Shown here in pieces: positions 1-37,272 of a stretch of 37,272 nucleotides of DNA. Under the pieces are notes generated by a model that saw nothing but the letters and a program-made list of their open reading frames with translations, was not told where the DNA came from and made no database searches. This stretch comes from a virus. Its lineage: Duplodnaviria; Heunggongvirae; Uroviricota; Caudoviricetes. How positions within the stretch are numbered: position 1 is the stretch's first letter; each line of letters starts with the position of its first letter. Made by a program: the position numbers and the translations under genes. The DNA is taken from positions 1 through 37,272 of the IMG/VR virus record IMGVR_UViG_2917403263_000004. One strand, given 5' to 3'.

Positions 1-144
1 TTACTGTCTACATTGTAAGAACGCCGCAAACTCCGCTCCCCAGAAGCTCATCCGTATCTCGCAGAGCGAACCCTGCAACATCCAGATGATGAGGATTGCC
101 GTCACGCATAGTGTGGTGATGGCGATTAGCGATTTTTGCGACAT
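1..144 (-). CDS. Hok/Gef-family type I toxin (small membrane peptide, 47 aa)
   Basis: Manual translation of minus strand 144..1: MSQKSLIAITTLCVTAILIIWMLQGSLCEIRMSFWGAEFAAFLQCRQ. N-terminal hydrophobic helix followed by SLCEIR...EFAAF, resembling the Hok/HokA/Gef signature. AAGGAG lies 8 nt upstream of the ATG. The stop codon is the first 3 nt of the window. Below the ORF-track length cutoff. Confidence 0.6.
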   Translation of the reverse strand: MSQKSLIAITTLCVTAILIIWMLQGSLCEIRMSFWGAEFAAFLQCRQ

Positions 145-247
145 AGCACTTGCTCCTTTTTCGGAGAGGCGCTAACCTACGACTTGCGAAGGTTGTATGG
201 CTAGGGCCTCGGGTTAACGTTAAAGTTGACTCGGGGCCTTTCCACAT
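8..247 (-). CDS. mok-like overlapping reading frame (modulator of hok translation)
   Basis: 79-aa ORF in the track that overlaps the hok-like ORF almost completely in another frame and starts about 100 nt upstream, as mok does in hok/sok loci. No sequence-level confirmation. Confidence 0.35.
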   Translation of the reverse strand: MWKGPESTLTLTRGPSHTTFASRRLAPLRKRSKCYVAKIANRHHHTMRDGNPHHLDVAGFALRDTDELLGSGVCGVLTM

Positions 248-408
248 CCGGCCTTCAGGTATTCCCTCCAGCCATCAGCCGAAAGGCACCCGCGCGAATT
301 CTAGCCTGGTTTTTTCCCTTGTTTCAATCCGTTGAGACTTATCAGCCTTCTGATGTAAAATTCCCGACCGCAGACATTATTCAGTCACGCATTTGATACA
401 TGCTTCCG

Positions 409-22401: not shown

Positions 22402-23428
22402 AAAGAAAAAATCCCCCGTGTTACACGATGGCGTGGCAAAAAAAACAGCCAGCAAAATGACGTTTATTGAATTTGGTGACCCGGAACCGGTCGCTGCATG
22501 GGGCTGTTATTACGGCTCGCTCTGGGATGGTTATAACGGCTGGTACACGCCGCCCATTGAGCGCATGGATCTCGCCATGTTGGCCAATATCGCACCGTAT
22601 CACGGCGCGGTACTGCGTGCGCGCGTCAATATGATTATGCAGGGTTTTCGTGGGGGTGGTGGTATGACACACGCCGCCATGGCGGCAGCGGTGACCAATC
22701 TGCTGATATTCGGGGATATGGGACTGCTTAAAGTGCGCAATGGTTTCGGGCGGGTGGTGCGCCTGCATACGTTGCCTTCTCTGTACCTGCGGCGTAACAA
22801 CGAGGGTGGCACGGTGATTGTGCAGGCGGCACTGGAAGATCTCGTTTACCCGCCAGGCGAAGTGGTGTTCGTGGCCATTTATGACCCGCAACAGCAGGTT
22901 TACGGTGTCCCGGATTATATTCACGGGATGGAATCTGCCATGCTGAATGTGGATGCCACCCGCTTTCGCCGCAAGTATTACAAGAACGGCGCACATCTGG
23001 GTTATATCCTGTATTCCACTGACCCGGACATGGATCCCGATCTCGAGGCGGAATTCCGTAAAAAGATAGAGGCGTCAAAAGGGGCGGGCAATTTTAAATC
23101 CATGTTTATCAATATACCTGGCGGAGACAAAGAAGGCGTTAAGGTGATCCCTATCGGGGATTCAGGTACAAAAGATGAGTTCCTGAATATAAAAACCATC
23201 AGTGCCCAGGATCAGCTCGTTGCGCACCGTTTTCCACCCGGACTTGCCGGCATCATTCCCGCAAATACGGCCGGGCTTGGTGACCCACTGAAATCCCGCG
23301 AGGCATATTACAGGGATGAGGTTATCCCGATGCGCCGCCTGATTATGGAGGGGATCAACAGCGACCCGGATATCAGACGACTGGGGGAGGTGAAATTTAT
23401 TCTTGATTTTGATGAACCCATGGAGTGA
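22394..23428 (+). CDS. Portal protein (gpQ-like)
   Basis: 344 aa (P2 gpQ is 344 aa). Follows the terminase large subunit gene. Confidence 0.85.
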   Translation: MSKKKKSPVLHDGVAKKTASKMTFIEFGDPEPVAAWGCYYGSLWDGYNGWYTPPIERMDLAMLANIAPYHGAVLRARVNMIMQGFRGGGGMTHAAMAAAVTNLLIFGDMGLLKVRNGFGRVVRLHTLPSLYLRRNNEGGTVIVQAALEDLVYPPGEVVFVAIYDPQQQVYGVPDYIHGMESAMLNVDATRFRRKYYKNGAHLGYILYSTDPDMDPDLEAEFRKKIEASKGAGNFKSMFINIPGGDKEGVKVIPIGDSGTKDEFLNIKTISAQDQLVAHRFPPGLAGIIPANTAGLGDPLKSREAYYRDEVIPMRRLIMEGINSDPDIRRLGEVKFILDFDEPME

Positions 23429-23493
23429 TGTGCGGTATGAGGAAAGAGCGGGTAAAATCGGCGGCAGTAAAACGCTGTTCCGGGAGGTGGAAA

Positions 23494-23751
23494 ATGCGCA
23501 GACAAAAAGCGCGATGTCATTGCTGTGGTGCACATGCGGTGATTGAGAAAACAGCCTGGAAAACCGATCAGTTTGCTGATGTGTATTACCGTTGCACCCG
23601 TCTCGAGTGCGGACATACCTGGGTGATGAATCTGACCTACTCGCACACACTGGTGCCCAGCGGGCTGGAGAATGGTGTGTTAAAGCTGTTGATTGAGCGG
23701 ATGCGCCCGGAAGAAAAACAAATGGCTCTGGAGTTGTTGCAGGCCGGATAG
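23494..23751 (+). CDS. Ogr/Delta-family zinc-finger late-gene activator
   Basis: 85 aa from ATG 23494 (GGGAGGTGG RBS): MRRQKARCHCCGAHAVIEK...YYRCTRLECGHTW. Cys pairs resemble the Ogr zinc finger. The track ORF begins upstream at 23425. Confidence 0.6.
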   Translation: MRRQKARCHCCGAHAVIEKTAWKTDQFADVYYRCTRLECGHTWVMNLTYSHTLVPSGLENGVLKLLIERMRPEEKQMALELLQAG

Positions 23752-23773
23752 CTGACGCGCTTCGCTTGTCCAA

Positions 23774-23820
23774 CCCGGAACGGGCGCACAAAGAATTTGC
23801 GCACCCGTTCCGGGTTTTCT
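23774..23820 (+). terminator. Rho-independent terminator after the Q-ogr unit
   Basis: Roughly 13-bp stem CCCGGAACGGGCGC...GCGCACCCGTTCCGGG followed by TTTTCTT. The convergent Rrf2-like gene stop overlaps the T-run. Confidence 0.55.
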
Positions 23821-24176
23821 TATTCAATGGCAGACAACTGATAATTTGTGTCTTCCTGCAGGCTGGTTAAAGAAATATTATCCAGTGCAGCCAGAATAAC
23901 GTGCTGTGTATATAATCCGGAACATTTCATTGCCCGGACAATATCACCAACACTGTAATTTTCTTTTGTCGGGATATATCCACCACCCGGGCCGCGTGTG
24001 GCTTTTACCAGGCTACTTTCCCGTAAATATCTGAATATTTGCTCCAGATATGACAGTGAAACGGTTTCTTTGCTTAATTGCCGGAGTGAGATTGGCTTTC
24101 CGGTGTACTGTTTCACAAATTTAATCATTACCATAACTGCAACTGATGCACGCTGGCTTCCGGAATTATCTTTCAT
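23820..24176 (-). CDS. Rrf2-family winged-helix transcriptional regulator (short form without Fe-S cysteine cluster)
   Basis: Contains SLSYLEQIFRYLRESSLVKATRGPGGGY, the Rrf2 (IscR/NsrR-like) signature. Start set at ATG 24176 (GGAAG RBS), giving 118 aa. Confidence 0.55.
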   Translation of the reverse strand: MKDNSGSQRASVAVMVMIKFVKQYTGKPISLRQLSKETVSLSYLEQIFRYLRESSLVKATRGPGGGYIPTKENYSVGDIVRAMKCSGLYTQHVILAALDNISLTSLQEDTNYQLSAIE

Positions 24177-24190
24177 CGTGATTACTTCCA

Positions 24191-24466
24191 TTAATGGCAT
24201 AAATTGATGGAGTGGGTCAGTGAATAAAGAGGCATTACATTCCATCCCTTAGAGCGCCAGCTGTCTGCAACATCTTTACTCCTTGTTATTGCTGGTATTC
24301 CGATGCCGTTATTTACATGCATCCATGCCACTGGCTCTGCTTCCAGTGATGCAAGTGCGATTAACATATTGTGATCGTCTTCATCAAGACCGAACGGGAT
24401 GTCTTCGCGCCACGATTTAAACTTTGTGATTTTACGTTGTAGCCATTCTTTGGTAATGGTGGACAT
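24191..24466 (-). CDS. Hypothetical protein (91 aa)
   Basis: ORF in an operon-like array with 3-12 nt spacing. No recognisable motif. Confidence 0.4.
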   Translation of the reverse strand: MSTITKEWLQRKITKFKSWREDIPFGLDEDDHNMLIALASLEAEPVAWMHVNNGIGIPAITRSKDVADSWRSKGWNVMPLYSLTHSINLCH

Positions 24467-24468
24467 GG

Positions 24469-24666
24469 TTACTCCTGTTTTATTGGTCTGATACTGTTCA
24501 GAAGTAAGCGTCGCCGCATATTTGGCGCGCCCCAGCGGTAGCCAGTTTTTTTGTCGTAGGATTCAGAACGTCCGACAACCCAGGATGTTTTAGTTGAATG
24601 CAATTTCAAACGCTTTTCGCCATTCCTGGTGATAACAATTCCTGTATGAGTTTTTATCGCGCTCAT
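24469..24666 (-). CDS. Hypothetical protein (65 aa)
   Basis: Basic small ORF. ATGA overlap with the upstream Ea22-like gene. Confidence 0.4.
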   Translation of the reverse strand: MSAIKTHTGIVITRNGEKRLKLHSTKTSWVVGRSESYDKKTGYRWGAPNMRRRLLLNSIRPIKQE

Positions 24667-25256
24667 TTCGCAACACCTTTGCGAAGTTGGGCGGCAATCA
24701 ATTGGAGATATAGCGCGGATGTGCGATGATATTCCGCTGCTATCGGCGCCTCTTTCTCGCTGCGCTCCGCAAGCTGGTTTAACTCCGTGATGGCTATTTC
24801 CACACCCCGTGCCCGCACTATATTCTGGAAGGCGTCGGTGGCTGGCGTATCTGGCATGAGTGGTGATTCATCAGCAGGCGAGTACTCATCAGAAATGTCG
24901 GGCTGCTCCCCATCAAATACATAGCAACTGCCCCTGATAAACAGCTTCATTGCGGCATTCTCCGCTGCCAGCTCCGTGAAATTAGCCTCCAGCTCTGCAA
25001 TGCGTTTGCTTTGGGCTTCTCGTTCATCCAACAGAGCCCGCACTACTTCAGGGTTGAAAGCTGCGATATAACGAGCGTTGTTCTCTGCGTTTTTCTGTCC
25101 GTCAAAGCCGGGCCATTTGATAACGTCTTCACATCGTTTATCACCGGGCGTATGCACCGCATACGTACCAGTACCCGTCGAAATAAATGCGACCCATTCG
25201 CCCTGTGTTGCCTGTTTTGCTAACTCACGCAGTGCCTGATAGTTGATTTCGCTCAT
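24663..25256 (-). CDS. Ead/Ea22-like protein (lambdoid early-region accessory protein family)
   Basis: N-terminus MSEINYQALRELAKQATQGEW resembles the conserved Ea22-like N-terminus found in lambdoid prophages. 197 aa. Confidence 0.5.
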   Translation of the reverse strand: MSEINYQALRELAKQATQGEWVAFISTGTGTYAVHTPGDKRCEDVIKWPGFDGQKNAENNARYIAAFNPEVVRALLDEREAQSKRIAELEANFTELAAENAAMKLFIRGSCYVFDGEQPDISDEYSPADESPLMPDTPATDAFQNIVRARGVEIAITELNQLAERSEKEAPIAAEYHRTSALYLQLIAAQLRKGVAK

Positions 25257-25319
25257 TAAGTCGGTCTCCTTGTTTATGTTCTGAGGTGGAGATCAGGGCG
25301 AACTCGCCCTGACGTTGTG

Positions 25320-25631
25320 TTATTCGGGGAATAACGCCCTGATATTTCCGGCCATCTGACTGGTTATCTGTGCGGTTGGCACTGGCTGTGACACGGGGCG
25401 TTCTGTCCTGGTTTGTGTCACGGATAACGCCTCATCGTCAGCCCATGCAGCCAGTCGGTAAGCCTCTGCTGGATTCATTTTCAGAAGTGCCAGCCCGGCC
25501 AGAAAAGCCACGCGTTGGCCGCTTTTGCGGGCTTCTGGTGTAAGGCTGTCCAGCCAGGCGCATGCTTCGCTTTCGTTCTTGACGGCCGCAGGCTTCAGAT
25601 AGAAACTTATCCGTCTGGTTGGTGTCGTCAT
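25320..25631 (-). CDS. parR: ParR-like centromere-binding adaptor protein
   Basis: 103 aa from ATG 25631 (AAGGAG RBS, 4 nt after the parM stop). RRISFYLKPAAV...GQRVAFLAGLALL...NIRALFP parallels R1 ParR (RRTIAFKLNPDV...NRAALTAGLALY...ILRSLFP, recalled from memory). Confidence 0.6.
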   Translation of the reverse strand: MTTPTRRISFYLKPAAVKNESEACAWLDSLTPEARKSGQRVAFLAGLALLKMNPAEAYRLAAWADDEALSVTQTRTERPVSQPVPTAQITSQMAGNIRALFPE

Positions 25632-25635
25632 TGGT

Positions 25636-26595
25636 TTACTCCTTGTCCATTGCGTACAGCCCATTAACCAGAGCAAACTGTGGCACCCCATCCGCGATGA
25701 AAGTCGCATTAACTCCGCAGGCTTCGCGGATAGCGGGTGCCACAATCTCCGCCCCGCCACCGACAACCATCACCCGCCCGTAACCCGAAAAACCCGCCAG
25801 CGCGCGGATCACGCGTTGTTTCAGTGTTTCCTCCTTTTCACGAATAACCGCCATCAGGCTGCCGTAATGCGCGTCATTGTGGATGTGCTGGCGCAGCCAG
25901 GCTTCATCATGGCGATGTTCGATAATGGTATTGGCGATGTGGTGACTGGTGCGCATACCGTTAGTGGCCATCACCGACAGTACGGCATCGGCCATCAGAG
26001 AAACGCCTACGTGTGGATCGCAAAACACCTGGCTGATACCTGCCAGTTGCCCCTGAACCTTTGCCACATCCAGCGTGGTTCCGCCCAAATCCACAATCAG
26101 CAGGGATTCAAACGGACTCATGTCAGCCAGTGCCTTAAAGCCAGCCGGAATGGATTCAGGCATAACCCGTACGTTACGGATAGTGAATGCTTCGCTGTTC
26201 TGGTACTCCACCGGGCGCATGACGTTCGCTTTTTTGCGGTTGATGTTGGCCATGTCCGGCTGTGCGTTTGTATCGAAATACTCGCTCAGTGGCAGGGTGA
26301 CAACCACATCCACTTCCTGTGGTGGGATGCCTGATTTGACCAGCGCGTGATGAATGGCAATGACATTCACATCACTGTACTGATATTGCGTGTCGGTCGT
26401 CTGGACAAAGCGATCGCTGACCGAATCAAAACCATAGCGCACACCATCAAGCATGTAGTTCGCGGGCTGCGTGCCACCGAACGGCGCAGACCATTCCGAC
26501 TTGAAGCTGTTCGGGCTGATGGCGTTGCGGCGTTCGCCGTTCTCAGTCCATGCCAGCTTGATGTTGGTGGAGCCGTCGTCGATACAAATTTTCAT
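25636..26595 (-). CDS. parM: ParM/StbA-family actin-like plasmid segregation ATPase
   Basis: 319 aa. N-terminus MKICIDDGSTNIKLAW...ISPNSFKSEW...QYSDVNVIAIHHALVKSGIP closely parallels R1 ParM (MLVFIDDGSTNIKLQW...ISPNSFKREW...[20 protein letters not shown], recalled from memory). Confidence 0.85.
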   Translation of the reverse strand: MKICIDDGSTNIKLAWTENGERRNAISPNSFKSEWSAPFGGTQPANYMLDGVRYGFDSVSDRFVQTTDTQYQYSDVNVIAIHHALVKSGIPPQEVDVVVTLPLSEYFDTNAQPDMANINRKKANVMRPVEYQNSEAFTIRNVRVMPESIPAGFKALADMSPFESLLIVDLGGTTLDVAKVQGQLAGISQVFCDPHVGVSLMADAVLSVMATNGMRTSHHIANTIIEHRHDEAWLRQHIHNDAHYGSLMAVIREKEETLKQRVIRALAGFSGYGRVMVVGGGAEIVAPAIREACGVNATFIADGVPQFALVNGLYAMDKE

Positions 26596-26623
26596 GTCGA
26601 TTTTCCTTATGTTGATTAATTAA

Positions 26624-26738
26624 CCGTTTACGGGATTTTTAAATCCCGCTTTCGCCTGTTTTGTGCGCGCTTCATATATCGCGGCGCGTTTTTTGCTCAT
26701 TTACGGGTTTTGTGAATCCCGTTTCTGTCTGTTTTTTG
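26624..26738. repeat. parC-like centromere: two roughly 42-bp direct repeats, each containing an 18-bp palindrome
   Basis: CCGTTTACGGGATTTTTAAATCCCGCTTTCGCCTGTTTTGTG and TCATTTACGGGTTTTGTGAATCCCGTTTCTGTCTGTTTTTTG. Palindromes at 26631..26648 and 26704..26721, 73 bp centre to centre, immediately upstream of parM. Confidence 0.55.
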
Positions 26739-26846
26739 TTTCCACTGGTCAGGCTACCCCGCAGCAGGTCTGCTTTGCGGCGGGCGCGTTCAGTGGTTTC
26801 ACTGATTCTCTGTGCGTGCTCTGCGTCACGGATGGCGCGCAGCATG

Positions 26847-29326
26847 TCAGAAAGCACGGTAACAGGGGTTTTCATGGTGTTCTGGTCCTGCTGAAGTGTG
26901 GATGCCAGGCGTGCGGCGGCTTCGGGGTCTCGATGCCCCCAGCTGTTCCAGATAGCTGGCGACCGGGTTATGGCGGATCTCCGTGCTGCTTACGCCGTGA
27001 TTACGGCTCAGGCGCTGCCAGAGCTGCGTGATTCGGCTGTCCGGGCGGGTATCCGGTTTGCGTACAATTTCAAATCCCTGCGGTGCAATGATGCTGCCGT
27101 CAACGTACAGACTGCCGCCCCGTAACAGGTGCTGCATCTGCTGTTCACCGATATGCAGGCCGAGAGATTCAGCAGACTCCCGCCATTCTTTAGCGAGTAA
27201 CTCATGGTTATCAGGCAAAGGCCACGGTGTTGGCCGTTCTTTCGGCTGTTCTGTCCCGTTGTTGTCCGTTTCCTGTACATGGGGACAGTTATTGCCACGA
27301 GTCCAAGGGGCGGCAGGGCCGCCCTGAAGGTCAAAACCATTTTCGCGGGCGCTGTCTTCCGCTTCCGGTTTACGTCTTACCAGCTTCCAGTTATCCGGGT
27401 GCGTGCACACGCGGGAAGATTCCCCGATGAGCGGCGACCAGATCCCGTAAATCTGTACACTCTGCTCGCCGTAATCGTTCAGCTCATCTGCGAGGTCGTA
27501 GGCGGTGCGAATCAGGTAGTCTTTACGTGGAACAAGTACGCCGCCCTGTTTTTCAATGTAGGAGGCAAAACACCCGGCATCGGCGGCAGCGAGTACCGCA
27601 TCCATTGCGTCATCCTTCAGCCGTTGCGGGCCTTCCGGGTTGCGTGCCATCTGGCTGGCAAGGCGGCGCAGTTCACGCCATACCTGACGGGAGGGGATGC
27701 CAAAGAACTGGAACTGGCGGACCCGATGAAGGCGCGCCCAGCCGATGGCGCGCTCCACGCTCTCGGCCATTGATTTTCCGGTTTCGTGGTCAACGCGTGG
27801 TTTGCCCGTTTTCGGATCGATTCCATCCACGGCGCGGCTGTCCAGGTTTTTTCCGATGTAGGTGGCGATGTAGCTGGTTGGCGTGCCTTTGGAGCCGTCG
27901 ACGTACTCCACCTTAAAGCGCGGAGTAATATCATTGCCCAGCTCGTGGCGGTCTTCCTGAATGGCAATATCGCGGGTGATGGCCACGATGCTGTCGATTT
28001 CTTCCGGATGAGCAAAGACCATCATATGCCAGTGCACGGTGCCGTCATGGTGAGGCTCCACCGTGCGGATGCCATACCAGCGCAGGCCGTCGCGGTTCAG
28101 TTTTTGCGGACCGCCGCAAAAAACGTGTTAACCAGGTAATCGCTGGAGTCGCGCATGGTGGCCCCGTTCCATTTGGGATTCGGATGACCGTTCTCTGTTG
28201 TGGCGTGGTATTTTGACGGGCAGGTGACAGTCAGAAACACCGCTTTGTCGCCACGGGCTTCGGCCAGAAGTTCCAGTCCCTTCATGGTGGCCATCATTTC
28301 TGCCTTACGGTGAACCGGGTTACTTACTCCCGCGTAATACACTGTCTCGAGATCAATCGTGAAGCCGTCTTCGTTTTCCAGTTCGAAGCTCTTCAGGAAG
28401 TCGCGGGTTTTCTCGCGCTGTGCGCGAAACTCGCTTAACGCGTCCTGGCTCAGATAGGGTGATGTTTTTCTGGAAACCAGACAGGCGGCGCGGAGTTGTT
28501 CTTCTCTCCACTCGCAACGTAACAGCCACAGTTTGCGTTTCCACCAGTCCGCACAGGTCAGGCGGAGGATTGCGCCCGGCAGCAGTTCCGTATCCGGATC
28601 GCTCTTGTTCAGGGCTTCGTAATGTGGCGGCATGATGTGCAGGCGTAATGCGATACGAGCCAGCATCCGGTAAGCCTTCAACATTACATCCATGGTCAGC
28701 TCGCCATCTCTGGCACCAAAGCCATCGCAGAGTGTTTCGAAGGTGCTGCTGAACATCGCCGCGGTCATGGTGGCCAGCGTCTGTATCTGGTGCTTGTTGA
28801 GCTGCGGCAGGTAAAGCAAATCGTCCAGGCGTTCGCGCCCGGCAAGGGAGCGATAACCCGGTGTCAGCCAGCGTCCGTCAGTGCGATCCAGACGTTCGAA
28901 TATTTTGCGCAGGGTTCCGCGTGCATAGCGTTCCGCCTGCCAGCTCTTTTTGCCTTTCTGGCGATCGGCTTCCTGTTTTTTGCGCAGGAAGGAGAGGTGG
29001 CGAATAAGCGGATCGCGCAGATAGGACGGCAGCAGGCGCAGCGAGGCCATGGCTTCATCCACCGCGCCGCGTGCCTGCTTTCTGGCGTCTCCTGCCAGTG
29101 TGATGGTTTTGTCCTGTTTTTCCTGTGCGTCCAGGCTTTTATTAATCAGGTTGCCCAGCGGCGTGGCGGAGAACGCCGCATCAGCCATTTCCTGGCGGCG
29201 CTCGTTCTCTACCCGGTAGGCATCCAGCCAGGAGGAAAGCGCGGATTCAGGAGCGGGGATCCCCGTTCCTTCACGCCCCACTGCGTGGCGCGGTTGTTGC
29301 CAGTCCCTGATGTACTCTGCCGTCAT
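26847..29326 (-). pseudogene. Replication initiation protein gpA (rolling-circle HUH endonuclease), split by a 1-nt frameshift
   Basis: Two track ORFs (28097..29326 and 26847..28061) in different frames. The C-terminal part carries HUH and catalytic-Tyr motifs (GTVHWHMMVFAHPEE, YIATYIGK). The frames join if one A is added to the minus-strand A5 run (plus T5 at 28101..28105): ...FFAAVRKK-LNRDGLRWYGIRTVEPHHDG. Confidence 0.7.
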
Positions 29327-29332
29327 AGTGAT

Positions 29333-29698
29333 TTACTTCGTCATGCCATTCAGGGTGTCGCGGCAGACTGTAGCCAGCCGCTGAATTTCCAGCACGGTGT
29401 CTTCTGTGTCGGCATGGCGATGTGTGATGCGGATGCTGTCGGCAATCACATCGACGATTGCAGAGGATGGGTGCTGGTAAATGCCAATAACGGACGGGGT
29501 GCCACCTTCAATGCGGTAAAGCCTGTAATTTCCCTCGTGGCTGTCAATCATGTAGCGACCATCAATAACAATCTTTCCATCAGCGAGCTGCGGTACAGGC
29601 AGGGATTTCAGGTACATGTCATAACGATCACGCACGCGAGCGGCAAGATCACGTTCTGTGTTGAGCAGGTATTCAAGAAAGTCGTTGGCGAGAATCAT
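29333..29698 (-). CDS. Hypothetical early protein (121 aa)
   Basis: ORF ending 7 nt before the gpA start. Confidence 0.45.
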   Translation of the reverse strand: MILANDFLEYLLNTERDLAARVRDRYDMYLKSLPVPQLADGKIVIDGRYMIDSHEGNYRLYRIEGGTPSVIGIYQHPSSAIVDVIADSIRITHRHADTEDTVLEIQRLATVCRDTLNGMTK

Positions 29699-29770
29699 TG
29701 CGGCAATCCTCTTGTTACAGATGTGCGAAGGCCTCCCGCCGCAAGGTGCAGGAAAGGCCCGGAACAGTAA

Positions 29771-30001
29771 TTAATGGAGTTTGTTTTGCTGCTGGATGAG
29801 CTGCTGAAGCTCGCGCAGATCATCCGCCAGATAGCTGAAAACAGAGGCGGAATAGCTGTTCGATAGTGCGTGACTGCGCTCATGCAGCATATTGATGTGC
29901 ATGATTTGCGCGACGCGTGATGCGCGGAAAAGTCTGCGGTTGATTTCAGTCTGGATGTGACGACGCTCCGCGATAGCGCGGTGCTGTTTGCGGTTTGCCA
30001 T
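29771..30001 (-). CDS. Hypothetical small basic protein (76 aa)
   Basis: First ORF after the iteron-rich non-coding region. Arg-rich N-terminus. Confidence 0.45.
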   Translation of the reverse strand: MANRKQHRAIAERRHIQTEINRRLFRASRVAQIMHINMLHERSHALSNSYSASVFSYLADDLRELQQLIQQQNKLH

Positions 30002-30011
30002 GGTGTGGCCT

Positions 30012-30235
30012 CTGTAGTTGCAAGTTTTGAAAACTCACCATCCAGAGGTTGCAATTCTGGGTGGTGAGGCGTACGGGGTTGCAACCACCGGCAACTACAG
30101 AAACCGGCCCGACCGAAGTCGGCCCCATACGCCCCACCATAATTCGTGTGCGAAAAAGACGTGGCGATACGGTACGCACAAAAAAACCGCTGGCGCGGTT
30201 GTGCGCTGTAGTTGTCAGCGGGGGTTGCAATCCCG
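30012..30235. repeat. Cluster of short repeats (CTGTAGTTG and GGTTGCAA motifs) in a 320-bp non-coding region
   Basis: CTGTAGTTG at 30012 and 30206, with the inverse GCAACTACAG at 30091..30100. GGTTGCAA at 30047, 30077 (perfect palindrome GGTTGCAACC) and 30222. Confidence 0.5.
30181..30200 (-). terminator. Putative terminator after the upstream early genes
   Basis: On the minus strand, ACCGCGCCAGCGGT hairpin followed by T7, nested inside an outer CGCACA/TGTGCG inverted repeat. Confidence 0.4.
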
Positions 30236-30321
30236 ACACCCGTTTTATGAGGTGCAGCGGAAATGTAACCTGACTGATTGCGGCATGGCAAGCGGTTTTT
30301 TTGTGTGTGCATGATGATTAC

Positions 30322-34791: not shown

Positions 34792-34860
34792 CTTTACACA
34801 TTGAGCGGATTACATCTCGCAAGGAGTATTTAGTTAATTTATCCGTTGGATGGGCTAATC

Positions 34861-35854
34861 ATGTCGATTAAGCAACTCAAAGACGGACGTTATCAGGTCG
34901 ATGTCAGACCGCAGGGGGCGGAAGGAAAGCGGATTCGAAAAATCTTCGCCCTGAAATCAAAGGCTCAGGAGTTTGAGAAATATGTGTTGCAGAACTTCCA
35001 TGACAAGCCATGGCAGGCTAAGCCAGCTGATCAGCGGCGATTATCAGAGCTGCTTGATGCGTGGTGGATGCTTGACGGGCGTAATCAGGCTTACGGGGAT
35101 AGCTACAGGGTCAGGCTAGAGAAGGTTATTCGTGAAATGGGAGATCCTCGTGCCAGTCATATGACGCGAAAATTTATGCTCGAGTATCGGTCAGAGAAAT
35201 TACAGGCCGGATTAATGCCGTCCAGCATTAATCGTGATTTATGCGTTCTGTCTACCATGTTCACGGTGCTGATTGAAGCTGAGGTCTTTCACAATGCGAA
35301 CCCTGTACGCGGTATACGCAAACTGAAAGTTCAGAACACGGAAATGGCCTTTCTTTCTGATGATGAGATTGAACGGCTTCTTGAGCGACTGGAGGGGGGA
35401 TGCGCGTCGTGTTGCCATTCTGTGTCTTTCTACTGGTGCCCGGTGGAGTGAAGCATCGGAACTACGTGGAGAGCATATCGTTGGCAACCGGGTGACGTTT
35501 TTTAACACCAAAAACGGAAAATCCCGCTCAGTTCCTGTGGCGGATTCGGTTGTGCCTCTGATTAAAACCCGTCGGACGGGGTTGTTGTATCAGGTTAATT
35601 ATCTGGAGTTCCGGGAGATTCTTCAGGAGGTGAAACCGGATTTGCCGAAGGGGCAGGCTACGCATGTCATGCGTCATACATTTGCCACACACTTTATGAT
35701 GAATGGTGGAAATATTGTTACGTTACAACGAATCCTTGGGCACGCCACGATTCAGCAGACAATGACGTACGCTCATTTTTCGCCGGACTTCTTACAGGAC
35801 GCGATCAACTTTAATCCGTTGGCTGAAAGTGTCCATAAACTGTCCATCGATTAG
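34861..35854 (+). pseudogene. int: P2-type tyrosine integrase, frameshifted
   Basis: N-terminus MSIKQLKDGRYQVDV and C-terminal RHTFATHFMMNGGNIVTLQRILGHATIQQTMTYAHF parallel P2 Int. The reading frame shifts +1 at the G6 run 35394..35399 (track ORFs 34846..35451 and 35360..35854); a G5 run would restore ...LERLEG-DARRVAILCLSTGARW. Confidence 0.75.

Positions 35855-35979: not shown

Positions 35980-37272
<1,293 letters not shown>

What the first reader, a model, noticed from the sequence alone, without database searches (positions are those of the whole stretch)
25320..26760. Plasmid-type ParMRC partition cassette inside an integrated P2-like prophage
A ParM actin-like ATPase and a ParR-like adaptor sit downstream of two roughly 42-bp direct repeats that each carry an 18-bp palindrome, the layout of a type II centromere (parC-parM-parR). 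The cassette lies between the replication gene gpA and the head-gene end of the phage genome, where P2 carries tin/old. The same element also has a chromosomal integration module (int, C), so it may be able to persist as a segregating episome as well as a prophage. Alternatively the actin-like filament system has been co-opted for another purpose.
Basis: partly seen in the sequence, partly recalled or inferred. Interest (0 to 1): 0.8.

Follow-up and report, generated by a model that had tools for sequence, protein, structure and literature searches.

The report
Known ParMRC partition cassette in P2-like prophage
The region is a real plasmid-type (actin-like) DNA segregation operon inside an integrated P2-like prophage, but the cassette is common, already annotated and already discussed in print, and its role in the phage is still untested.

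Summary
parM lies at 26595-25636 (319 aa, Pfam StbA_N 5e-82 plus ParM C-domain 4e-68, 46% identical to R100/R1 ParM). parR lies at 25631-25320 (103 aa, PF10784 1.8e-24). Upstream are two 39-nt direct repeats (79% identical, 73 bp apart), each with an 18-bp CGGG-N10-CCCG dyad.

It is not new. The block is 95-97% identical to the Xuanwuvirus phages P88 and phiSM. It matches 1474 of 5426 complete E. coli genomes, and PGAP and PHROGs already name it. Pfeifer 2021 and Rousset 2022 already suggested that these phages might also persist as plasmids.

My additions:
- parM is under strong purifying selection (dN/dS 0.055).
- ParM relatives of 53-62% identity sit at the same gpA-to-portal position in Plesiomonas, Serratia and Enterobacter P2-like prophages.
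- The centromere has two sites, not R1-type iterons, and the distal site lies inside the 3' end of gpA.
- I found no σ70 promoter or terminator between gpA and parM.
- 1701 of 1704 E. coli copies are chromosomal.

I therefore favour transient partition of the replicating circle, co-expressed with the early operon, over stable episomal lysogeny. In this window gpA (twice) and int (once) are frameshifted.

The parts
25636..26595 (-). parM, an actin-like segregation ATPase of 319 aa
   Evidence: Pfam StbA_N 5.1e-82 and ParM C-domain 3.6e-68. PDB R1 ParM about 1e-91. 46% identical to R100 ParM, with the DDGSTN, PES (E148), DLGGTT (D170) and GGGA motifs aligned. PHROG 691 'partition protein' 7e-90. 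dN/dS 0.055 over 73 distinct alleles; intact in 85 of 86 loci.
25320..25631 (-). parR, a centromere-binding adaptor of 103 aa. The ATG lies 4 nt after the parM stop.
   Evidence: PF10784 1.8e-24. PHROG 2515 at 2.5e-58 over the full length. 34% identical to the R100 ParR N-terminal domain, E 2e-8. In a 9-way alignment its C-terminal NIRALFPE aligns with the C-terminal KKNAMKLIN of R100 ParR. The family alignment shows an invariant TRRISFYLKP strand and AFLAGLAL helix, a hypervariable linker and a conserved C-terminus. AF2 gives helices 20-61, a disordered stretch at 62-86 and a C-terminal helix at 87-100.
26627..26665 (.). Proximal parC repeat, holding the perfect 18-bp dyad CGGGATTTTTAAATCCCG at 26631-26648. 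It lies in the 76-nt gpA-parM gap.
   Evidence: Conserved in 84 of 84 relatives, in Hafnia and, as CGGG-N10-CCCA, in Plesiomonas.
26700..26738 (.). Distal parC repeat, holding the dyad CGGGTTTTGTGAATCCCG at 26704-26721. It lies inside the 3' end of the gpA reading frame.
   Evidence: In two variant loci, sequence upstream of this repeat is replaced but the repeat is kept, which marks the module boundary.
26666..26699 (.). 34-nt G+C-rich spacer between the two repeats. It contains the gpA stop at 26672-26674.
   Evidence: Conserved among close relatives but diverged in Hafnia. No σ70 promoter of at least 9/12.
26601..26608 (-). Ribosome-binding site AAGGAAAA, 5 nt before the parM ATG
   Evidence: Read directly from the sequence. 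Invariant in relatives.
26672..29326 (-). gpA replication endonuclease (P88-type, 940 aa when intact), here split into three reading frames by two frameshifts
   Evidence: tblastn against P88 gpA gives three segments in frames 3, 2 and 3. There is an A6-to-A5 change at about 28101-28105 and an extra base at about 26931. gpA is intact in 76 of 82 relatives.
23425..25256 (.). Variable cargo between parR and the portal gene (the gpA-gpQ hotspot). It holds an Ead/Ea22-like protein, 65-aa and 91-aa ORFs, an Rrf2-family regulator and an Ogr/Delta-like zinc-finger protein.
   Evidence: Pfam and PHROGs; no PADLOC hit. This stretch differs between relatives while parMR stays fixed.
34846..35854 (+). 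Tyrosine integrase, frameshifted, next to the host gene serS (35980-37272, minus strand)
   Evidence: Pfam Int_N on the first ORF; serS domains on the last ORF. An extra G in a G-run at about 35394, relative to a 96% identical intact E. coli prophage integrase.

Best explanation
This is a functional type II (ParMRC) DNA segregation operon. It is a conserved part of a large lineage of P2-like phages rather than an odd cargo gene.

Proposed mechanism: ParR dimers bind the two dyad-containing repeats upstream of parM, through an N-terminal domain that is homologous to that of R1 ParR. A conserved C-terminal helix of ParR captures the ends of ParM filaments. ATP-driven ParM polymerisation then pushes paired copies of the phage circle apart.

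No promoter or terminator could be found between gpA and parM. I therefore infer that parMR is transcribed with the early replication operon. On this view it acts only while the phage genome is an extrachromosomal, gpA-replicated circle, that is, after infection or after excision. It would distribute copies to both cell halves before integration or during slow induction.

This matches the logic shown for srpMRC of SXT/R391 ICEs. It does not amount to a stable plasmid prophage.

Shown here: homology, conservation, synteny and chromosomal location. Inferred: DNA binding, co-transcription and the benefit to the phage.
For: - Protein identity: ParM against Pfam, PDB and R100, with catalytic motifs aligned. 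ParR N-terminal domain homologous to R100 ParR. ParR C-terminal motif aligned with the ParR C-termini of R100, IncL/M, an ICE and other phages, with N96 invariant.
- Selection: parM dN/dS 0.055; parM intact in 85 of 86 loci and parR in 81 of 86.
- Centromere: the two dyads are unique in the window, kept in 84 of 84 close loci and kept in Hafnia while flanking DNA diverged. The same CGGG-N10 motif (second arm CCCG in the distal copy, CCCA in the proximal one) and a 72-bp spacing appear in a Plesiomonas phage whose ParM is 62% identical. Dyad arms are less polymorphic (pi 0.014-0.087) than dyad centres (0.11-0.25).
- Link to replication: parM follows gpA at a fixed 76 nt in 76 loci. The gpA-parM-parR-(cargo)-portal order holds for ParMs of 53-62% identity in Plesiomonas, Serratia and Enterobacter. 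The gpA-parMR block is about 95-97% identical between phages whose head genes are only 30-36% identical.
- Expression: no σ70 promoter of at least 9/12, no Ogr-type late-promoter dyad and no terminator between gpA and parM.
- Against a stable episome: 1701 chromosomal versus 3 plasmid places. Integrases are present in every relative inspected in which that region was within the stretch shown.
Against: - No experiment exists for this family: no ParR-DNA binding, filament or stabilisation data.
- A failed consensus scan does not prove that parC lacks a promoter. A weak TTTAAA-N17-ATTAAT candidate overlaps the proximal dyad, and R1 parC does carry the operon promoter.
- Overall diversity of the parC region (pi 0.055) is no lower than at parM 4-fold sites (0.062), so constraint on it is shown only by deeper comparisons.
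- Two sites are far fewer than the ten iterons R1 uses to build its ParR ring.
- A single non-replicating circle cannot be partitioned, so the benefit depends on some replication before integration.
- One 34.5-kb circular 'plasmid' record of such a phage exists.
Confidence: 0.45

Rival explanations
1. Dual lifestyle. The cassette lets the phage persist for many generations as a low-copy plasmid prophage in addition to the integrated state.
For: A complete ParMRC under purifying selection. One closed 34,461-bp circular record deposited as a plasmid is a whole P88-like phage. Published suggestions exist.
Against: 1701 of 1704 places in complete E. coli genomes are chromosomal. The other PLSDB hits are a chimera carrying pheA, rplS and ffh, a linear contig, or very large plasmids that carry the phage's gpA-parMR block. 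A 99.9% identical phage is chromosomal in a strain with a similar identifier. Only the rolling-circle initiator gpA was found, with no theta-type replicon or copy control among the scanned early genes. Integrase is retained wherever that region was inspected. The single circular record could be an excised replicative form captured by assembly.
Confidence: 0.2
2. Lytic-cycle organiser. ParM filaments position or disperse replicating monomeric circles to improve replication or packaging. This would resemble AlpAC of the Corynebacterium prophage CGP3 or PhuZ of jumbo phages, with no role in inheritance.
For: Apparent co-transcription with gpA. Tight physical coupling to gpA across deep divergence. 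In CGP3, the actin-like AlpC and adaptor AlpA bind repeats upstream of their own operon, and deleting either gives 2-fold less circular phage DNA (PMC4446434).
Against: About three quarters of E. coli P2-like phages, including P2 itself, replicate and package without it, so it is not needed for the basic cycle. The proteins are orthodox plasmid-type ParM and ParR rather than a divergent phage cytoskeleton.
Confidence: 0.2
3. The cassette acts from the integrated state as a competition device. Resident ParR and parC would interfere with the partition of incoming related phages or plasmids (partition incompatibility used as exclusion), or would influence segregation of the host chromosome.
For: It sits at the edge of the gpA-gpQ hotspot that holds anti-phage systems. 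ParR shows two allele classes and a hypervariable linker, as expected under diversifying pressure.
Against: No PADLOC match. The DNA-reading strand of ParR and the parC dyads are the same in both allele classes, so no specificity groups exist. tblastn with ParR finds no plasmid ParR outside records that carry the phage, and plasmid parC sites differ. About 15% of carrier genomes hold 2-4 copies without apparent conflict.
Confidence: 0.07
4. The cassette is a hitch-hiking relic of a past plasmid-phage recombination and has no present function.
For: The cassette is absent from most P2-like phages, so it is dispensable.
Against: dN/dS 0.055, with 85 of 86 parM copies intact. The position is conserved at 53-62% ParM identity in four genera. 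Phage ParMs form their own clades, each with 100% bootstrap support and distinct from plasmid clades.
Confidence: 0.03

Closest known systems
parMRC (stbA/stbB) of IncFII plasmids R1 and R100, the archetypal type II partition system
   Same: Gene order is centromere-parM-parR. ParM is 46% identical over its full length, with catalytic motifs conserved. The ParR N-terminal domain is homologous (34% identity, E 2e-8; PF10784). The C-terminal N-x-x-x-L/F motif aligns. Two repeat blocks lie upstream of parM, on an A/C-rich sense strand.
   Different: R100 parC has 11-bp direct iterons in two clusters about 94 bp apart, around the promoter. Here there are only two 39-nt units, each with an 18-bp dyad, and no recognisable promoter. 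The phage ParR is shorter (103 versus 116 aa) and lacks the middle segment (R100 residues about 65-85), which a hypervariable linker replaces. The host replicon is an integrating rolling-circle phage, not a theta plasmid.
Escherichia phage P88, Citrobacter phage phiSM and other Xuanwuvirus (Peduoviridae) phages
   Same: The gpA-parC-parM-parR block is 95-97% identical in nucleotides and already annotated as ParM / partition protein. It is discussed as a possible sign of episomal states.
   Different: The window's head, terminase and portal genes are only 30-36% identical in amino acids to those of P88-type phage P884B11 and have no nucleotide match in the phage collection. The closest backbone is a prophage of Escherichia albertii NBRC 107761. 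This copy has a frameshifted gpA and int.
srpMRC of SXT/R391 integrative conjugative elements (Carraro 2015, PMC4489591)
   Same: It is a type II partition system in an element whose resting state is chromosomal. Its centromere is a handful of direct and inverted repeats. It is co-expressed with mobilisation genes and relevant only to the excised circle.
   Different: It belongs to a different ParM lineage, and SrpR has no recognisable ParR homology. It has been shown experimentally (EMSA, stabilisation), whereas the phage system is untested. The element type is also different (ICE versus phage).
AlpAC/alpS of the Corynebacterium glutamicum prophage CGP3 (Donovan 2015, PMC4446434)
   Same: [quoted passage not shown] It is induced early after excision and acts on circular phage DNA.
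   Different: AlpC and AlpA are not ParM/ParR orthologues, and the gene order is adaptor first. Their role was assigned to replication efficiency in an actinobacterium that lacks MreB.

Membership tests
Type II (ParMRC) partition system | Actin-fold ParM ATPase (StbA_N plus ParM C-terminal domains) | tested here: met
   Pfam 5.1e-82 and 3.6e-68, both full length. R1 ParM structures at about 1e-91. 46% identity to R100 ParM.
Type II (ParMRC) partition system | Nucleotide-binding and hydrolysis residues of ParM (N-terminal DxGxxN phosphate loop, E148, D170 in DLGGTT, GGGA adenosine loop; R1 numbering, from established knowledge of R1 ParM) | tested here: met
   All are aligned and identical in the pairwise alignment with R100 ParM: IDDGSTNIKL, MPESIPAG, DLGGTTLD and GGGAE.
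Type II (ParMRC) partition system | Small ParR adaptor encoded immediately downstream of parM, with an N-terminal ribbon-helix-helix DNA-binding domain | tested here: met
   parR starts 4 nt after the parM stop. PF10784 1.8e-24. BLASTP to the R100 ParR N-terminus at E 2e-8. This is met at sequence level only. The RHH fold itself was not confirmed: the AF2 monomer had mean pLDDT 61 with a low-confidence N-terminal strand, and Foldseek against the PDB gave no hit.
Type II (ParMRC) partition system | C-terminal ParM-binding helix of ParR (the R1 ParR C-terminal peptide bound to ParM in PDB 4A62; from established knowledge) | tested here: met
   In a 9-sequence alignment the phage C-terminus (QMAGNIRALFPE) aligns with R100 ETKKNAMKLIN and IncL/M ETRKNVQHLFP, with the N invariant. 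It is the only conserved element after a hypervariable linker. It is predicted to be helical at residues 87-100. Binding itself was not tested.
Type II (ParMRC) partition system | cis-acting centromere of repeated ParR sites directly upstream of parM | tested here: met
   Two 39-nt repeats with 18-bp dyads. They are unique in the window, conserved in 84 of 84 loci and conserved in Hafnia and Plesiomonas relatives.
Type II (ParMRC) partition system | R1-type parC architecture: ten 11-bp direct iterons in two sets of five, flanking the operon promoter that ParR represses | tested here: not met
   R100 shows clusters at 11-bp spacing. The phage has only two dyad sites and no σ70 match of at least 9/12. 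This is a variant centromere, not an R1-type parC.
Type II (ParMRC) partition system | ParR binds parC; ParM forms dynamic filaments; the cassette stabilises an unstable replicon | not testable with these tools
   Requires EMSA, microscopy and plasmid-loss assays.
Phage-plasmid (P1/N15/SSU5 type, in the sense of Pfeifer 2021) | Lysogens carry the phage as an extrachromosomal replicon | tested here: not met
   1701 chromosomal versus 3 plasmid places in 5426 complete E. coli genomes. This window is joined to the host gene serS. One circular 34.5-kb record is the sole exception.
Phage-plasmid (P1/N15/SSU5 type, in the sense of Pfeifer 2021) | Plasmid-type replication module with copy control | tested here: inconclusive
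   Only the rolling-circle initiator gpA (PF05840) was found next to parMR. The other early ORFs scanned had no Rep domain. Not every small ORF was scanned.
Transient-partition systems of integrating elements (SXT/R391 srpMRC type) | Partition genes expressed together with excision and replication functions, not in the quiescent integrated state | tested here: inconclusive
   No promoter or terminator was detected between gpA and parM, which is consistent with read-through from the early operon. No transcript data are available.

The most novel reading that the evidence does not exclude
The cassette is not a plasmid-lifestyle module. It is an early-operon function of a phage-specific ParM lineage, physically fused to the 3' end of gpA. 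It partitions the gpA-made monomeric circles between cell halves before integration. This would raise the yield and heritability of lysogeny, or keep phage copies in both daughters during slow or abortive induction. Partition would then be a general accessory of integration-based lysogeny in a quarter of P2-like phages. A bolder variant, not excluded, is that the resident copy interferes with partition of incoming relatives as a form of exclusion.
Probability: 0.35. Interest if true: 0.55.

Novelty: already known. Interest (0 to 1): 0.3.

Why it matters
A quarter of E. coli P2-like prophages, found in roughly a quarter of complete E. coli genomes, keep a plasmid segregation machine under strong purifying selection. 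Yet they are almost always found integrated. Explaining this would clarify what happens to temperate-phage DNA between entry or excision and integration, and where the boundary lies between prophages, phage-plasmids and ICEs.

The system is small (1.4 kb) and has a minimal two-site centromere. It occurs in culturable phages (P88, phiSM), so the question can be tested directly. As a discovery, however, it is not new. The genes are routinely annotated and the episome hypothesis has been printed twice.

Tried and rejected
- Terminator or RNA element instead of centromere: the proximal dyad can fold as an 8-bp hairpin (z -2.7) but lacks a U-tract. There is no Rfam hit and no terminator call on the sense strand. 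Rejected.
- Ogr-type late promoter (TGT-N12-ACA) near parC: none found.
- σ70 promoter in parC: nothing on the parM sense strand with the tool's scan. My relaxed scan (15-19-nt spacers, at least 8/12) gave only an 8/12 match that runs into the parM start codon, too far downstream to serve as its promoter.
- Defence-system identity of parMR or the neighbouring cargo: no PADLOC hits.
- ParR fold confirmation: the AF2 monomer had low confidence (pLDDT 61) and Foldseek against the PDB gave only noise. The PDB sequence search was empty.
- Looking for the same ParR on true plasmids: tblastn found only records that carry the phage itself. BLASTP to IncL/M ParR gave no alignment.
- Covariation between ParR allele class and parC sequence: none; both classes share the same parC variants.
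- Polymorphism test for constraint on parC: underpowered, with pi about equal to synonymous pi.
- Species-wide scan of genome contigs with ParM: exact-peptide seeds recovered only 3 loci. Deeper relatives were reached through the search for homologous proteins and the look-up of encoding contigs instead.
- attL/attR search: no repeat of at least 12 nt between the two window ends, so the left junction lies outside the window.
- The strain carrying the 34.5-kb circular record was not among the listed hits in the E. coli collection. I therefore could not check whether its chromosome also carries the prophage.
Full report
**1. What is there**

On the minus strand the window encodes parM (26595..25636, 319 aa). 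Four nucleotides after its stop comes parR (25631..25320, 103 aa).

ParM matches both Pfam ParM domains end to end (StbA_N 5.1e-82; ParM C-terminal 3.6e-68). It matches the solved R1 ParM structures at E about 1e-91. It is 46% identical to R100 ParM, with the phosphate loop (IDDGSTN), E148 (PES), D170 (DLGGTT) and GGGA motifs conserved.

ParR matches PF10784 (1.8e-24). Its first 56 residues align with R100 ParR (34% identity, E 2e-8).

Upstream of parM are two 39-nt direct repeats (26627-26665 and 26700-26738; 79% identical; 73 bp start to start). Each contains an 18-bp dyad: CGGGATTTTTAAATCCCG (perfect) and CGGGTTTTGTGAATCCCG. At 0-1 mismatches the dyad occurs nowhere else in the window.

Two refinements apply. 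The repeats are 39 nt, not 42. The distal repeat lies inside the last codons of the replication gene gpA, which in intact relatives stops 76 nt before the parM ATG.

**2. It is a common, already annotated module**

The 1.7-kb block is 95-97% identical to the Xuanwuvirus (Peduoviridae) phages P88, P884B11 and 520873 and to Citrobacter phage phiSM. In those records the genes are already called 'plasmid segregation protein ParM' and 'partition protein'.

gpA-parMR matches 1474 of 5426 complete E. coli genomes. 1222 genomes have at least 80% coverage, and a genome holds up to four copies. PGAP annotates the genes everywhere. PHROGs has dedicated families for them (phrog_691 and phrog_2515).

The literature has noticed it:
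- Magaziner 2019 lists the phiSM gene as a 'fitness' gene.
[quoted passage not shown] I found no experimental work on it in the searchable library.

**3. Evidence that it is functional**

I used 80 IMG/VR loci plus the reference phages.
- parM is intact in 85 of 86 loci and has dN/dS 0.055 (pS 0.077).
- parR is intact in 81 of 86 loci.
- The ParR family shows an invariant N-terminal strand (TRRISFYLKP) and helix (AFLAGLAL), a hypervariable linker of about 30 residues, and a conserved C-terminus N-I-x-x-x-F-P-E.

In a 9-way alignment with ParRs from R100, an IncL/M plasmid, a Dickeya ICE, a plasmid-like Mangrovibacter region and three other P2-like phages, this C-terminus aligns with the extreme C-terminus of R100 ParR (…KKNAMKLIN). 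The Asn is invariant. From established knowledge (R1 ParM-ParR peptide complex, PDB 4A62), that is the peptide that binds ParM.

The P88-type ParR is a shortened version that lacks the middle segment present in the others. An AF2 monomer model agrees on helices at 20-61, a disordered linker and a C-terminal helix at 87-100. Its confidence is low, and fold search was uninformative.

**4. The centromere candidate**

Both repeats are present in all 84 close loci with enough upstream sequence. The two ParR allele classes (A, 62 loci; B, 21 loci) share the same parC variants.

Diversity across the region (pi 0.055) is no lower than at parM 4-fold sites (0.062). The dyad arms (0.014-0.087) are less variable than the dyad centres (0.11-0.25).

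Deeper comparison is more telling:
- In a Hafnia phage (ParM 94% aa identical) both repeats and the RBS are kept, while the spacer and the gpA 3' end have diverged.
- In a Plesiomonas P2-like prophage (ParM 62%) there are again two direct repeats 72 bp apart. Both share the CGGG-N10 core, with the second arm CCCG in the distal copy and CCCA in the proximal one, and the distal copy lies inside gpA.
- Serratia and Enterobacter P2-like prophages (ParM 58% and 53%; ParR 133-134 aa) instead carry a pair of 14-20-nt inverted repeats 26-28 nt apart.

None of these resembles R100 parC, which has 11-bp direct iterons in two clusters, or IncL/M parC, which has GTATTTTTC iterons around a promoter. This is a type II system with a minimal two-site centromere. 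The layout is closest to the four direct and inverted repeats of SXT/R391 srpC.

**5. Coupling to replication, and expression**

The order gpA - parM - parR - (variable cargo) - portal holds in Escherichia, Citrobacter, Hafnia, Plesiomonas, Serratia and Enterobacter phages. In Enterobacter two small genes intervene between gpA and parM.

In a neighbour-joining tree the phage ParMs form two clades, each with 100% bootstrap support. One holds the P88-type, Hafnia and Plesiomonas sequences; the other holds Serratia and Enterobacter. Both are distinct from the R100-like and IncL/M-like plasmid/ICE clades. These are therefore old phage lineages, not recent captures from plasmids.

The window's own phage shows the module moving as a unit. 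Its portal, terminase and scaffold are only 30-36% identical to those of P884B11, a P88-type phage, and have no nucleotide match in the phage collection. Its gpA-parMR, however, is about 95-97% identical to P88-type phages. The whole arrangement recurs in an Escherichia albertii prophage.

Between gpA and parM I found no terminator, no σ70 promoter of at least 9/12 and no Ogr-type late-promoter dyad. The simplest reading, which is an inference, is read-through from the early operon. parMR would then be made together with gpA.

**6. Episome or not**

- In complete E. coli genomes, 1701 of 1704 places are chromosomal.
- Among PLSDB hits, CP110658 contains pheA, tyrA, rplS and ffh and is therefore chimeric. 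CP049283 is a linear contig. Others are very large plasmids that carry the phage's gpA-parMR block.
- Only NZ_CP148288.1 is a closed 34,461-bp circle equal to a whole phage. A 99.9% identical phage is chromosomal in a strain with a similar identifier.
- The only replication gene is the rolling-circle initiator gpA. Integrases are present wherever the inspected stretch reached that region.

I conclude that stable plasmid lysogeny is at best rare. I favour a role on the transient, gpA-replicated circle after infection or excision. The lytic-cycle organiser (AlpAC-like) and the true dual lifestyle remain the main rivals.

**7. This particular copy**

Relative to P88, the window's gpA has an A6-to-A5 change at about 28101-28105 and an extra base at about 26931. 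These split it into three ORFs. gpA is intact in 76 of 82 relatives.

The integrase has an extra G in a G-run at about 35394, relative to a 96% identical intact homologue. Two of the three changes are in homopolymers. They may be sequencing errors or early decay of a grounded prophage. If they are real, this copy cannot replicate or excise, and its parMRC has nothing to act on.

The right end of the window is the host gene serS. It is 80-95% identical to E. coli serS, 90-95% for most records, so the host is probably a non-coli Escherichia. The left att site lies outside the window.

**8. Verdict**

The identification as ParMRC is supported at sequence level, with a non-R1 centromere. The episome interpretation has already been published and is weakly supported. 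Novelty: already known.

The remaining interest lies in the unanswered question of why integrating P2-like phages keep a partition machine. The anatomy described here (two dyad sites, ParR C-terminal helix, apparent early-operon coupling) makes that question easy to test.

Noticed in passing
window 26672-29326 (about 28101-28105 and about 26931): gpA is broken by two frameshifts relative to P88: an A6-to-A5 run and one extra base. gpA is intact in 76 of 82 relatives. This is either sequencing error or a decaying prophage.
   Followed up: yes
window 34846-35854 (about 35394): The integrase is split by an extra G in a G-run, relative to a 96% identical intact E. coli prophage integrase that sits next to dmsA. 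With the gpA breaks, all three frameshifts I found hit replication or excision genes. The long ORFs for terminase, portal and the other structural genes looked uninterrupted, but I did not check them against a close homologue.
   Followed up: partly
window 1-23500 versus 25225-30313: The phage is mosaic. Portal, terminase and scaffold are only 30-36% aa identical to the P88-type phage P884B11 and have no nucleotide match among 50,697 phage records. The gpA-parMR block, in contrast, is about 95-97% identical to P88-type phages. The closest backbone is a prophage of Escherichia albertii NBRC 107761 (L088).
   Followed up: partly
window 23425-23751 (+): An Ogr/Delta-type zinc-finger ORF (108 aa) starts on the portal stop codon, in the cos-proximal hotspot rather than at the P2 ogr position. 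A Plesiomonas P2-like prophage also has an Ogr_Delta-like gene beside its portal (L100 8126-8386).
   Followed up: no
window 23820-25256 (-): The hotspot cargo between parR and the portal holds an Rrf2-family regulator (141 aa), 91-aa and 65-aa ORFs and an Ead/Ea22-like protein (197 aa). None matches a PADLOC defence model, and all belong to PHROGs of unknown function.
   Followed up: partly
window 2-319: The left end is about 84% identical to a segment of Stx-converting phages that some records annotate as 'MokW-like host killing' (hok/mok-type toxin). The window begins exactly at an ORF boundary and ends exactly at the serS start codon.
   Followed up: no
parR, window 25320-25631, and relatives P0001-P0096: ParR comes in two allele classes (about 85-96% and about 50-57% identical to the window's), with a hypervariable linker. 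Meanwhile ParM stays 98-99% identical and parC is shared. The recombination boundary with the variable hotspot seems to fall inside parR.
   Followed up: partly
PLSDB records NZ_CP110658.1 (L092) and NZ_CP049283.1 (L093): Records labelled as plasmids that carry the cassette are unreliable. One 272-kb IncHI2 'plasmid' contains core chromosomal genes (pheA, tyrA, rplS, ffh). The other is a linear unplaced contig.
   Followed up: yes
L103 (Dickeya, CM001975.1) and L104 (Mangrovibacter CP134782.1): R100-clade ParM/ParR pairs also occur in the chromosome. One lies within a conjugative element (TraG/TraU, integrase). The other lies next to a Rep3/ParAB plasmid-like region. Partition cassettes in integrated elements are therefore not confined to phages and SXT-type ICEs.
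   Followed up: no
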